From the human T2T-CHM13v2.0 reference genome, Homo sapiens, in NCBI RefSeq assembly GCF_009914755.1, contig NC_060941.1: a stretch of DNA of 64,000 nucleotides. One strand, 5' to 3'. Under the pieces are notes generated by a model. The model had not been told where the DNA came from. It did not search any database and saw only the letters and a list, made by a program, of their open reading frames with translations. Positions 572 through 13,041 of this stretch are shown piece after piece. The number at the start of each line of letters is the position of its first letter. Position 1 is the first letter of the stretch. The position numbers and the translations under genes were made by a program.

Positions 572-1264
572 CTCCTGCTTCACACCAGGGACTGGTGACT
601 TGGACTGCTGCTCTCCAGTGAGGTCTGACTTCGGGCCGGTGGAGCCTGGGGTCACCAGCTCTTCCGGTGGGGCTGGGGAGCGCTGCTTCTTTGGGGCTTC
701 AGGCTTGGCTGGGGATCCTGCTTTCTCAGGGGAGTCTGCCCAGTCTGGGGAGCCTGGCTCCTGGCTGGAGGGCTTCTCCCCCTTCCCAGAAGACTGCTTG
801 CCGCGGGCCTTGTGCTCCTTGCCCCTGCCCCGAGACATCAGGCTCCGCAGGCCCAGGGAGAGCTCATCCTTGGCTGCCTCCTTCTTCACTGCAGGCTTAG
901 GCGGAGCAGGGGGAGGTGGGGGAGGGGGTGGCGGCTTGGGACTAGAAGCTGCCTTTTCTCCCCTCTTGCTTCGAGTCGGGTGCTCGGGGGACTTGACTCC
1001 TCTGCCTGGGGTCTCCTTGGCATTCCCAAGCTCCTCGCTGGGCAGCACCTTACTCACCACCTTCCTCACTGCATTTGCCACCCGCTTCCGGGACAGGCCC
1101 TGGGCCTCTTCGCTTAGGCCTTCTGCTGTGGCAGCTCCCGGGCCGTTCATGGCGAGTGTGGGTGCAGGGCTCCTGGCTCTCTGGGAAGTCTCTGGGGGTA
1201 TCGGGCTGGTGGGAGGCTGAGGACTCCTAGATGGGCCACTGCCTTCCTTTGAGCTGCCCTCTAG
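572..1264 (-). CDS. MYO18A: MYO18A alternative N-terminal exon (gamma-type), 693 nt / 231 codons, Pro/Ser/Lys/Glu-rich with a polyproline tract
   Basis: Acceptor tgtatgactgtag|CTA at 1264 and donor GAG|gtacaa at 572; phase 0 at both ends. Open frame LEGSSKEGSGPSRSP...MNGPG...KPPPPPPPPPAPPKP...GVKQE includes most of ORF 527..1150. Fits the polyproline-containing N-terminal extension described for sarcomeric Myo18A-gamma. Confidence 0.85.
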
Positions 1265-2732
1265 CTACAGTCATACAAATACAGGTAGACATTAGCATCA
1301 CCCCTGCAGCCCTGCCCATCCCATGCAGAGGGAATAAGAAGGTGTGACCTCACGCCCTGGAACAGATCTCCCATTCATCTACCAAGCAACACATGGCTCC
1401 ACGAGGCTACCCAGGAAGCCCACTTTCCATCTTACAGATAGGACAATTGCAGCTAAGAGTCTGGCTTCTTTCCCACAAAGCACAATCAGCACAATCAGGT
1501 ACTACTGTCACCTGCTGTCTATCCCCAGACTTAGCATGGACCTGTGAGATGCCGGCACAGAGCGCCGAGAGGCCTATGAGGTGCTCTGGGGTTACTGGCT
1601 TTGTGTCAGGGCAGCAACCAAGTCCCATTCTAGGTGAGCCCACTGCCTCGCAGCCCAGACACAGCAGAGATGGAGCATGGACACAGCAGAGATGGAGCAT
1701 GGAGAGGTCAAACAGCCGAGTCCCACCTCCATTCCTACCACCAATCCCAGGCCTAACTCCAGGGCGTCCTGACCTTTGTAGTCCTTGGTCCTTCCATCAC
1801 CTGTTTTCCGGGCAGTCAGACCAAGAGCCTACCCATCCTGAAGGAAAAAATGATCAGGGAGCTCTTCCTGGCCCCAAGACATGCCAGGCCTCCTCCTCAC
1901 AGCGTCCCTCGTCTGCGGCCACTGTCTGCCCTTCATCTATGTTCTCAAGCACTGACGAGCCCAGCACGGGCCAGGAAGCTTCCACTTCAGCCTGCTTTCT
2001 GCCAGTCTCCTTGCAGTTTTCCTCCTGCAAACCTCTCAAGGGTTTGGAGACCCCCTAGTTCCCAGAGTGTGTATAGCCCTCAAGCAGCCTCAGCTCCAAT
2101 CTTCCCTGGAGTGGACTGGTATACTCTAGCTGGTGTGCCCACCCTTCCCCCACACACTGGTGCTAACTGTCTGGGTCCCAAGGGACTGCCACTGGAAGGC
2201 CAGGCTGGCTAACGGCAGGATAGAGTTTCCCATAAAGCCAGCTCCATTGCCTGGGGAGCGTAAGGGCAACCTGGGTTCTCCTTGTTGGCCAGGCAGAGCT
2301 CTGTCACCAGCTGAGCTGTGCTTGAGTCCTTGTTACCCAAAACAATGATCTTGGTTCTAGAACACATATGGGCACTGGGCTCCGTGAAGGCCCACCTGCC
2401 CATGCTTGCTTGGATGCAGGAAGACGCTCACAGTAGGCGCACCTGGGAGCTGCTGCCTCTGGATGCCACAAGGAGAAGTTGCTCCACCTTTTGAGCAGAG
2501 CTGAGCCAAGGGCCTTAATCTAGGCCCTGGTTACAGGTTGGCTCCGCTGAAGGGATAGAGAGAGTAAGGGCTTGAAGGTGCCTCTTCCTCAACCTCTTAG
2601 GCCAAGAGTGCTCAATGGCATGCCAGGGCACTGCAGAGTTGGCCAGTGGCCCTAGCCACTGGATCCTACACTCCTCCCCTCCCTCTTCTGGCTTTCCTCC
2701 CATCCCCCGTCCATCATTAAGATGATGACGAT

Positions 2733-3052
2733 GGGCCAGGTGTGGTGGCTCACGCCTGTAATCCTAGCACTTTGCGAGGCCAAGGCAGGGAGACTGCTTG
2801 AACTCAGGAGTTCAACACCAGCCTGGGCAACATGGTAAAACTGTTTCTACAAAAAATACAAAAAGTAGCCAGGCTTGATGGTGTGTGCCTATAGTCCCAG
2901 CTACGCTACTCAGGAGGCTGAGGTGGGAGGATGGCTTGAGCCTGGGAGGCAGAGGTTGCAATGAGCTGAGATGGCACCACTGCATTCCAGCCTGGGTGAC
3001 AGAGTAAAACCCTGTCTCAAAAAAAAAAAAAAAAAAAAAAAAAGAAAAGAAA
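2733..3052 (+). mobile_element. Alu
   Basis: Dimeric Alu consensus with poly(A); degenerate atgatgac target-site duplication. Confidence 0.9.
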
Positions 3053-3196
3053 ATGATGACAATGATGATGATAGTAATTGGTAAGACTTACACAGTACTC
3101 ACTATGGGCCATGGCACTCTTCCAAGCACTTTACATGTAGTTTTTGCAAAAAAAATAAAATAAAATAAATTCTGGGCAACTCTGAGGCCTCTCCCT

Positions 3197-3228
3197 CACA
3201 CACACACACACACACACACACACACACA
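3197..3228 (+). repeat. (CA)n microsatellite
   Basis: Uninterrupted CA run. Confidence 0.95.
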
Positions 3229-11900: not shown

Positions 11901-12303
11901 GGGTCTTGGTTTCCTCCTCCAACGACTGAACCTGCTGGAGGCCCCCCTTCCCTGGGGATGCTCACTGCCCCTCTGGAGGGCACTTTGCTGTCTGCTTGGA
12001 TATCACTGTGCATGGCCCTAAATCTGTGACCTGGTGCTAGTGGCCCGGGGGTGGCTGGGGGAGAGTACCCTAGACCAGGAAGCGCCCATCTCTCAGGGTG
12101 AGGAGCTCTCTCTGACCTCTCCCCCACCCCCGGGCATACTGCCCACACAACTCAGCCCTGGTGCCAGTTTGGGGGCTGAGGCAGGGCAGTCCTGAGCACA
12201 GAGAGATACAAGTACTCACGGGTACATCTCAGGCTCCTGATGCACCTCCGCACCAGGCCAGCCCACGTACTCTGCCAACTGCTGACACAACTGAAAACCT
12301 TAC

Positions 12304-12312
12304 CCTTGGTGG
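12304..12312 (-). CDS. MYO18A: Candidate 9-nt microexon (Pro-Pro-Arg)
   Basis: ccttcccgttcccctgactctacccctcccag|CCACCAAGG|gtaagg: branch-like ccctgac, long pyrimidine tract, strong donor, frame-preserving. Confidence 0.55.
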
Positions 12313-13035
12313 CTGGGAGGGGTAGAGTCAGGGGAACGGGAAGGACTGGGAGCAGCTATGTCTCTCCTCACTTTCTTTTTTAAGGAACTTACTTATCTGG
12401 AGTAATCTCTACTAAAAAAGAGACTTAGGGCCAGTCAGAGCATCCCCAACACGCCATCTGTGCCCCTTGCAAGTGTCCTATGCACAGAAATGGAGGTGGC
12501 CATGCTAAGACTACTCTTGGGGACAGCGAGAAGGGTGCTCCCTGACAACTCCAAGGACCATCCCCTCTCAAGGAGGAAGAGAGGAAAGAGCTATACCAGC
12601 AACAAAGCAGAGACAAGACTACCGAGGACCTTGGGTGCTGTGGGGCTGGGGCTTTGGAAGAAAACAGTGTTCTAAGGAATGAAGGCCAAAAAAGCACTAA
12701 TGGTTGGTGGGGAAGGCGTGTCACAGCCTTGGGGGTGGATGCAACCCCAGGAAACTGAGGTTCAGAAGACGGTGCCCCTCCAAAACTCCTGAAGTCATGA
12801 GTCAGGCCCAGGATGCCCTGCTCCTAGCCACGGAGGGGTTTTGAGGCTTCCGGGGCTGAGTAACTCCCTTCTTACCAAGAAGCTCGGAGAGGAGCCCCAA
12901 GGCTGCCCCACCCCTCTCCCCACCTACTTCAGCCACATCTGGGGAAATCACAAAAAGGTCCCTCCTTTCCTAAATGAGGAAATAGCATGAGGAGCCTGGG
13001 ACATTTCCGGGGTGGGGGGTCAGAGGGACACTCAC

Positions 13036-13041
13036 CCGCAT
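13036..13041 (-). CDS. MYO18A: MYO18A beta-isoform first coding codons (Met-Arg) at the end of an internal first exon (~13090-13036)
   Basis: gccATG CGG|gtgagtg, a consensus phase-0 donor. The PDZ-less beta isoform is known to start with a 2-residue leader before AKTEEQ. Confidence 0.8.

What the first reader, a model, noticed from the sequence alone, without database searches (positions are those of the whole stretch)
572..13041. Hidden all-phase-0 exon set in the MYO18A intron that rebuilds a MYO18B-like N-terminus
Seen: five short or unlinked coding modules largely missed by the ORF track all end in phase 0, like alpha exon 2: MR (13041-13036), PPR (12312-12304), MAFSSRFAFWEQK (6536-6498), VKEEDKTLPKPGSPGKEEGA (4142-4083) and a 231-codon polyproline exon (1264-572). 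Known: MYO18B starts MAISSRLALWEQKIREEDK, and mouse heart expresses a sarcomeric Myo18A-gamma with a proline-rich N-terminus. Inference: joining the last three gives a 264-aa leader starting MAFSSRFAFWEQKVKEEDK, so this module predates the 18A/18B duplication. Shared phase allows combinatorial N-termini, including PDZ-plus-polyproline hybrids and MR-initiated gamma forms.
Basis: partly seen in the sequence, partly recalled or inferred. Interest (0 to 1): 0.8.

Follow-up and report, generated by a model that had tools for sequence, protein, structure and literature searches.

The report
Human MYO18A-gamma leader exons, GA-AG intron
These "hidden" exons are the human copy of the already described muscle-specific (gamma) start of myosin 18A, and the one fresh detail is that its first intron begins with a rare GA instead of GT, exactly as in the sister gene MYO18B.

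Summary
All five translations are at the stated coordinates. Three modules (6498-6536, 4083-4142, 572-1264, minus strand) are real coding exons. Their join matches chimpanzee MYO18A isoform X5 at 261 of 264 residues. Of the 120 vertebrate MYO18A models listed, 62 start the same way. This is the human orthologue of the published mouse Myo18A-gamma N-terminal extension. Its likeness to MYO18B over the first 19 residues is already in print (PMC11112018), so the core claim is known biology that the human RefSeq table given for this window omits.

- MR (13036-13041) is the annotated beta-isoform start.
- PPR (12304-12312) is no better than chance.
Its intron begins AAG|GAAAGT.
- MYO18B has the same GA donor at the same codon. 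That MYO18B intron is a documented, RNA-seq-supported GA-AG intron (PMC4176328 supplement).
- Likeness to MYO18B stops after about 20 residues.
- PDZ-plus-leader and MR-initiated forms exist only as computed models in other species.
- The leader also continues into further phase-0 exons outside the window.

The parts
6498..6536 (-). Gamma start exon, coding part (MAFSSRFAFWEQK). ATG sits in a GCCATGG context with an in-frame TGA 10 codons upstream. A cag| acceptor lies 4 nt before the ATG (exon probably 6498-6540), as in MYO18B where cag| lies 1 nt before the ATG.
   Evidence: 31/39 nt and 14/19 residues identical to the MYO18B start. The acceptor and in-frame stop were read by eye.
6492..6497 (-). 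Non-canonical 5' splice site GAAAGT after AAG. It matches the recalled U2 consensus MAG|GURAGU at 8 of 9 places, the miss being +2 (A for U).
   Evidence: The identical hexamer follows the homologous codon in MYO18B.
4143..6497 (-). Proposed GA-AG intron, 2355 nt, phase 0, ending ctccctcag.
   Evidence: The paralogous MYO18B intron is 2099 nt and is listed as GAAG / U2_GTAG with RNA-seq support in the PMC4176328 supplement.
5781..5939 (-). It is homologous to the coding first exon of rodent models that splice to the VKEEDK exon. In human it has GTG where those have ATG, plus an in-frame TGA, so it is non-coding here. Donor CTG|gtgaag. It overlaps the RefSeq enhancer 5791-6085.
   Evidence: tblastn E 8.6e-12 and 1.9e-12, 55-58% over 53 aa. 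A cattle model matches 5714-5845 in another frame (E 2.3e-13).
4083..4142 (-). Second gamma exon (VKEEDKTLPKPGSPGKEEGA), 60 nt, phase 0-0, cag| acceptor and |gtaagt donor.
572..1264 (-). Third gamma exon, 693 nt, phase 0-0. It holds the proline run and two conserved helix-prone motifs (SRKRVANAVRKVVSKVLP and KDELSLGLRSLMSRGRGK).
13036..13085 (-). Annotated first exon of the beta isoform. ATG CGG then gtgagt.
   Evidence: and the hub table. Arithmetic: 2054 - 333 + 2 = 1723, the lengths given for human alpha and beta in PMC7900500.
12304..12312 (-). PPR 9-nt candidate microexon. Good-looking splice sites but no support. Judged a chance match.
38636..39634 (-). Alpha exon 2 coding part (KE-rich and PDZ), 333 codons, ends in phase 0.
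   Evidence: and the hub table.

Best explanation
Window 572-6540 (minus strand) carries the human orthologues of the first three coding exons of the striated-muscle isoform Myo18A-gamma.

Shown:
- The exons are intact.
- They are flanked by splice signals.
- They are all in phase 0.
- Their join reproduces the N-terminus annotated in many vertebrates.
- The exon order is: a 13-codon start exon, a 20-codon exon, and a 231-codon proline-rich exon. Two further phase-0 exons follow just outside the window, at about -1300 to -1374 and -2579 to -2614. The common exon begins at about -5013.

Inferred:
- The first intron (6497 to 4143) is removed from a GA 5' splice site. That site matches the U1 consensus everywhere but position +2. 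MYO18B has the same arrangement, so it was inherited from before the MYO18A/MYO18B duplication.
- The leader is a mostly disordered extension with three short helices and a polyproline stretch. Published mouse work suggests it replaces the KE/PDZ extension of alpha and places the protein at the sarcomeric A-band.
- Because all cassettes are phase 0, alpha, beta (MR) and gamma first exons can in principle be combined with them. Computed models in other species show such combinations. Human use is untested.
For: - Translations and splice context.
- Orthologues: 6 of the 19 hits start with the exact join, as do 62 of the 120 listed. Chimpanzee X5 matches at 261/264. 87 of 106 teleost myo18a proteins start MAFSSRFSFWEQK or a near variant.
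- GA donor.
- MYO18B comparison: the MYO18B start exon at C22:26222278-26222316 is followed by the same GAAAGT, and the next exon begins with IREEDK after aaaacag|.
- MYO18B in print: that intron is 2099 nt, the same length as the entry chr22:26157098+26159197 GAAG, U2_GTAG, heart and skeletal muscle among its tissues, four ENST ids, in supplement file 2 of PMC4176328.
- Indirect sign of GAAAGT in other species: models that read through the site give E-S after WEQK. These are cat MYO18A P0213 (ESW, the human read-through codons), a teleost MYO18A P0342, and three unnamed MYO18B representatives P0053, P0057 and P0061.
- No canonical alternative: the only phase-0 GT donors before the stop are weak (TGT|GTGCTT, CTT|GTGGGA, CAT|GTGTGT). 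They would add 12, 25 or 39 residues seen in no orthologue.
- Structure: AlphaFold2 on a 5-row alignment gives helices at 3-19, 92-106 and 167-179, with the rest disordered. These coincide with the blocks conserved from mammals to teleosts.
- Literature passages: gamma lacks KE/PDZ, has a polyproline helix, localises to the A-band, and its first 19 residues resemble Myo18B.
Against: - No RNA or peptide data for human were available, so use of the GA site and of the start exon in human is inferred.
- The RefSeq table supplied with the finding has none of these three exons among six transcripts.
- GA at +2 is normally a poor 5' splice site. In FGFR its use is said to depend on a GT six bases upstream (PMC4176328 passage). 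No such GT exists here.
- No genomic DNA of other vertebrates could be read, so conservation of GA in MYO18A outside human rests on read-through models only. One stickleback model (P0326) and one MYO18B representative (P0073) read G-S, not E-S.
- 17 of the 120 models start at an internal MNG, and 7 start from other first exons. The start exon is therefore not the only entry.
- The fold has mean pLDDT 52.5 and pTM 0.17 on a shallow alignment.
Confidence: 0.82

Rival explanations
1. In human the start exon is a relic. The GA at +2 disables its donor, and human gamma-like transcripts enter from the non-coding exon at 5781-5939 or from the MR exon. The resulting proteins would start at MR or at the internal MNG of the proline exon.
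For: GA donor. Human RefSeq lacks the exon (hub table). 17 of 120 models start MNG and 4 of 120 start MR joined to the leader. A conserved alternative first exon lies at 5781-5939.
Against: MYO18B carries the same GA and is spliced there with RNA-seq support. The 13 codons are intact, with a strong ATG context, and are identical in chimpanzee. The same peptide is kept in teleosts.
Confidence: 0.1
2. One reading: a previously unrecognised exon set whose shared phase drives a combinatorial family of human N-termini, including a PPR microexon and PDZ-polyproline hybrids.
For: All cassettes are multiples of three. 29 of 120 models combine the alpha start with the leader.
Against: The isoform and its likeness to MYO18B are in print. 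The hybrids are computed models in other species with no expression evidence seen here. PPR is at chance level.
Confidence: 0.06
3. The open frames are chance products of GC-rich intron sequence and encode nothing.
For: ORFs of similar length lie on the opposite strand and nearby.
Against: E-values down to 4.5e-109 against annotated MYO18A proteins. Motifs are conserved to teleosts. Splice signals sit exactly at the boundaries.
Confidence: 0.01

Closest known systems
Mouse Myo18A-gamma (Horsthemke et al. 2019, J Biol Chem; reviewed in PMC11112018 and PMC7900500)
   Same: An alternative N-terminal extension without KE/PDZ, with a polyproline stretch and a first 19 residues like Myo18B (passages). 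The human exons give the same architecture.
   Different: PMC7900500 gives lengths only for human alpha and beta, and the RefSeq table for this window lacks the exons. I could not read the 2019 paper (not held), so I do not know how much human sequence it shows. The long serine-rich C-terminus of gamma lies outside the window and was not examined.
MYO18B first coding intron, a GA-AG intron (PMC4176328, supplement file 2)
   Same: The same peptide start (14/19), the same phase-0 junction after WEQK, and the same AAG|GAAAGT donor. In both genes an acceptor lies just upstream of the ATG.
   Different: The MYO18B intron has RNA-seq support and Ensembl transcripts. MYO18A does not occur in that file. 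Past residue 20 the two extensions are not detectably alike.
GA 5' splice sites of FGFR1 and FGFR2 (Twigg 1998 and Brackenridge 2003, as described in PMC4176328)
   Same: A U2-type GA-AG intron kept in paralogous genes (passages; rows for FGFR1 and FGFR2).
   Different: The FGFR site is an alternative site said to depend on a GT six bases upstream. Here there is no GT within six bases, and the site would be the only one giving the conserved protein. The two primary papers were not seen.
MYO18A beta isoform
   Same: The MR module is its first exon, 13036-13085 (hub table). The lengths fit: 2054 - 333 + 2 = 1723.
   Different: Beta skips all gamma cassettes. MR joined to gamma cassettes is seen only in 4 of 120 computed models of other species.

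Membership tests
Myo18A-gamma N-terminal extension (orthologue) | Encoded by exons between alpha exon 2 and the common exon, with no KE-rich or PDZ part | tested here: met
   The exons lie at 572-6536, downstream of alpha exon 2 (38636-39715) on the minus strand. Pfam finds no domain in the leader.
Myo18A-gamma N-terminal extension (orthologue) | First 19 residues highly similar to Myo18B | tested here: met
   14/19 identical to human MYO18B read from the assembly. The feature is stated in PMC11112018.
Myo18A-gamma N-terminal extension (orthologue) | Polyproline stretch in the extension | tested here: met
   A run of nine prolines followed by APPKP lies in the 572-1264 exon. pLDDT is 70-72 in that region of the model.
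Myo18A-gamma N-terminal extension (orthologue) | [quoted passage not shown] | not testable with these tools
   No transcript or protein data for human were on hand.
Myo18A-gamma N-terminal extension (orthologue) | Paired with the long serine-rich C-terminus | not tested
   It lies far outside the window. The gamma-type models are mostly about 2350-2450 residues (range 1895-2453), against 2054 for human alpha.
U2-type GA-AG intron | GA at +1/+2, AG at the 3' end, otherwise consensus 5' site | tested here: met
   AAG|GAAAGT ... ctccctcag|. The consensus itself is recalled.
U2-type GA-AG intron | The junction is actually used | not testable with these tools
   For MYO18A there are only orthologous protein models with the K|V junction. 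For MYO18B there is RNA-seq support in PMC4176328.
U2-type GA-AG intron | Conservation of GA across species | tested here: inconclusive
   Both human paralogues have it. Read-through models give E-S in cat, one teleost and three MYO18B representatives, but G-S in two others. No other vertebrate DNA was readable.
Conserved coding microexon (for PPR, 12304-12312) | Present in orthologous proteins or rarer than chance | tested here: not met
   0 of 279 proteins have the junction. It is one of ten 9-nt look-alikes in the intron.

The most novel reading that the evidence does not exclude
The GA 5' splice site has been kept at the same codon in both class-18 myosin genes since before their duplication because it works as a gate. 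A normally poor donor that only striated-muscle splicing conditions use efficiently would tie production of the shared 13-residue N-terminal start to muscle. The same feature would explain why aligners and annotation pipelines keep missing or misplacing this exon in human and other species.
Probability: 0.15. Interest if true: 0.55.

Novelty: already known. Interest (0 to 1): 0.3.

Why it matters
The isoform is known and essential in mouse heart, according to the review passages. The practical point is therefore annotation. In the human RefSeq table for this window these coding exons are plain intron, so variants in them would be read as deep-intronic in a gene tied to sarcomere assembly.

The one new detail is a second GA-AG intron, paralogous to the documented MYO18B one. 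It adds a rare, apparently very old non-canonical splice site. It also gives a concrete reason why the start exon is easily lost by splice-aware tools. The mis-joined models in cat, fish and several MYO18B entries illustrate this.

Tried and rejected
- The 2019 J Biol Chem paper on Myo18A-gamma and the 2003 EMBO J paper on the FGFR GA site are not held. Both are known to me only through citing passages and recall.
- Likeness of the leader to MYO18B beyond residue 20 was looked for and not found. Local alignment against three MYO18B N-extensions with 200 shuffles each gave z -1.1, -0.2 and 0.7.
- Pfam on the leader found 0 families for P0001 and P0041.
- I suspected from recall that the annotated exon 9712-9780 is a MIR-type repeat. 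A DNA search of the assembly gave only the self match. The tool skips very common words, so this neither confirms nor refutes the idea, and I dropped it.
- A frame-shifted rescue of the start exon uses donor GAAA|GT with an AG seven bases inside the next exon. I considered it by eye and rejected it, because it gives a peptide seen in no orthologue.
- Literature searches found no paper holding both GA-AG and MYO18B or both MYO18A and GA-AG. A looser search returned 123 papers, and the 15 listed had no MYO18A. Full-text search does not cover supplements, and file 1 of the PMC4176328 supplement could not be searched.
- A structure search was not run, because the model is low-confidence.
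Full report
**1. Observation**

The five peptides are at the stated minus-strand coordinates. Splice context was read.
- The 693-nt exon (572-1264) has an AG acceptor and a GT donor.
- The 60-nt exon (4083-4142) has cag| and |gtaagt.
- The 9-nt PPR stretch has cag| and |gtaagg.
- MR is followed by gtgagt and lies in the RefSeq exon 13036-13085 of the hub table.
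- Alpha exon 2 coding is 333 codons and ends in phase 0.

The start exon (6498-6536) is not followed by GT. The sequence is CAA AAG then GAAAGT.

**2. Are they real exons?**

ORF length is not evidence here. The opposite strand carries a 229-aa ORF over the same place, and a 236-aa ORF lies next door. Conservation is the evidence.
- The 231-codon exon finds 19 proteins, E from 4.5e-109 to 7.6e-10, among the 8000 candidates scored. Seventeen are named myosin-XVIIIa or myosin XVIIIA and two are named 'hypothetical protein'; all 19 carry the myosin head or the myosin-XVIIIa SH3 domain. Species run from primates to turtle and alligator.
Six begin at an internal MNG, four carry the alpha start, and three begin otherwise.
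- A second search with the elephant leader listed 120 of 158 hits. I sorted those 120 by their first residues:
  - 62 start with the gamma join.
  - 29 have the alpha start followed by the leader.
  - 17 start at MNG.
  - 4 have MR joined to the leader.
  - 1 (cat) has a displaced junction.
  - 7 have other starts.
- The human join, computed from the window, matches chimpanzee isoform X5 at 261 of 264 residues.
- In teleosts, 87 of 106 myo18a proteins found with the mullet leader start with MAFSSRFSFWEQK or a near variant.

**3. What is known**

I saw passages only.
[quoted passage not shown] It has no KE or PDZ part, has a polyproline helix, and localises to the A-band. It also says that the first 19 amino acids are highly similar between Myo18A-gamma and Myo18B.
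- PMC7900500 gives the same picture. It lists human lengths only for alpha (2054) and beta (1723).
- PMC11285346 mentions gamma as a known isoform.
- The primary paper (Horsthemke 2019) is not held. From recall, its abstract says the transcript is also seen in human heart.

It is useful mainly because the RefSeq table for this window shows none of the three exons.

**4. The MR and PPR modules**

MR is the beta start. The arithmetic 2054 - 333 + 2 = 1723 fits the published lengths.

PPR is not supported.
- Microexon-like patterns occur 41 times on this strand of window 1-38635, against a shuffled mean of 18.2. Ten of them are 9 nt long.
- None of the 279 proteins held at that point has PPR at a junction. 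That set was chosen for carrying the leader, so it is a biased sample.

**5. The GA donor**

I searched the assembly for the start-exon pattern. It gave three hits and none in the reversed control: one on C6, this exon, and one at C22:26222278-26222316.

The C22 hit reads MAISSRLALWEQK and is followed by the same GAAAGT. The next open exon, 2099 nt downstream, begins after aaaacag| with IREEDKSPPP.

The two start exons share the following:
- 31 of 39 coding bases
- all 6 first intron bases
- 14 of 19 residues across the junction

Supplement file 2 of PMC4176328 lists MYO18B chr22:26157098+26159197. The entry gives length 2099, dinucleotides GAAG, class U2_GTAG, tissues that include heart and skeletal muscle, and four Ensembl transcripts. 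MYO18A does not occur in that file. File 1 could not be searched.

So the MYO18B intron is a documented GA-AG intron, and the MYO18A gamma intron (6497 to 4143, 2355 nt) is its paralogue.

No canonical site rescues the conserved protein. The three phase-0 GT sites before the stop are weak, and they would add 12, 25 or 39 residues that no orthologue shows.

Models that read through the site give E-S, the codons of GAAAGT, after WEQK. This is seen in cat MYO18A, one teleost MYO18A and three unnamed MYO18B representatives. Two other models give G-S. This is indirect evidence, because I could read no other vertebrate genome.

Unlike the FGFR case as described in PMC4176328, there is no GT six bases upstream.

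I found no paper holding MYO18A together with GA-AG or MYO18B together with GA-AG. A looser search gave 123 papers, of which the 15 listed lack MYO18A.

**6. How far the likeness to MYO18B goes**

With the first 20 residues removed, local alignment of the human leader to three MYO18B N-extensions scores no better than shuffles (z -1.1, -0.2 and 0.7, 200 shuffles each). Only the start module can be traced to before the duplication, not the polyproline exon.

**7.

- Most models continue after the 231-codon exon into one or two further short exons. In human these are intact and in phase 0 just outside the window: AGAAKVQLTPVEEAHQRLERIFTAS at about -1300 to -1374 and LDSEAASHAHSQ at about -2579 to -2614. 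The common exon starts at about -5013. The 264-residue leader is therefore one of several forms, and a direct 572-to-motor junction is the minority pattern.
- Between the first and second gamma exons lies another conserved first exon, at 5781-5939. It is coding in mouse-like rodent models. In human it has GTG for ATG and an in-frame TGA. A cattle model uses the same DNA in another frame. It overlaps the RefSeq enhancer 5791-6085. It may be the entry for the MNG-starting models. That last step is inference.
- An Alu-like stretch lies just upstream of the start exon (recognised from recall). A cag| acceptor lies 4 nt before the ATG, as in MYO18B where it lies 1 nt before. This suggests that the start exon is internal and has an unidentified 5' exon.

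**8. Likely working**

The leader has no Pfam domain. AlphaFold2 on a shallow alignment (5 rows) gives a low-confidence model: mean pLDDT 52.5 and pTM 0.17. It has three helices, at residues 3-19, 92-106 and 167-179, and is otherwise disordered.

These helices coincide with the three blocks conserved from mammals to teleosts. The proline run itself is not kept in fishes.

My reading is inferred. The leader is a flexible extension with short binding helices. It replaces the KE/PDZ module and directs the protein to thick-filament regions, as the reviews propose for mouse.

**9. Verdict**

- The claim of novelty fails.
- PPR fails.
- The combinatorial forms are only computed models in other species.
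- The added value of this check is the paralogous GA-AG intron, the extra exons, and the annotation gap.

Noticed in passing
window 5781-5939 (-), also 5714-5845: Conserved alternative first exon between the first and second gamma exons. It is coding in murid and kangaroo-rat models. In human it is closed (GTG for ATG and an in-frame TGA). A cattle model uses the same DNA in another frame. It overlaps the RefSeq enhancer 5791-6085.
   Followed up: partly
outside the window: about -1300 to -1374, -2579 to -2614, -5013 onward (L007, L003): Two further intact phase-0 cassette exons (75 and 36 nt), each with a longer alternative donor, then the common exon. They extend the gamma leader beyond 264 residues.
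   Followed up: yes
window 9712-9780 (-): The annotated 69-nt exon of other transcripts has a ctag| acceptor and a |gtaagt donor. Read by eye in the frame set by the MR exon, it reaches a TGA after 13 codons, so it would close that frame.
   Followed up: partly
window 531-1220 (+) and 1348-2058 (+): Long stop-free frames (229 and 236 aa) lie antisense to and beside the real 231-codon exon. This is a reminder that ORF length alone means little in this sequence.
   Followed up: no
window about 6810-7090 (-): An Alu-like element (recognised from recall) sits directly upstream of the gamma start exon, followed by a pyrimidine-rich stretch and two AG acceptors (about 6640 and 6541).
   Followed up: no
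proteins P0213, P0342, P0326, P0053, P0057, P0061, P0073, P0020: Database models of MYO18A and MYO18B in several species misplace or skip the junction after WEQK. They read through into E-S or G-S, or start at the second exon. This is the expected behaviour if pipelines avoid a GA donor.
   Followed up: partly
window 13036-13222: The beta first exon (minus strand) and the first exon of lncRNA LOC124903967 (plus strand, 13170-13222) lie under 100 bases apart, head to head. This looks like a divergent promoter (hub table only).
   Followed up: no
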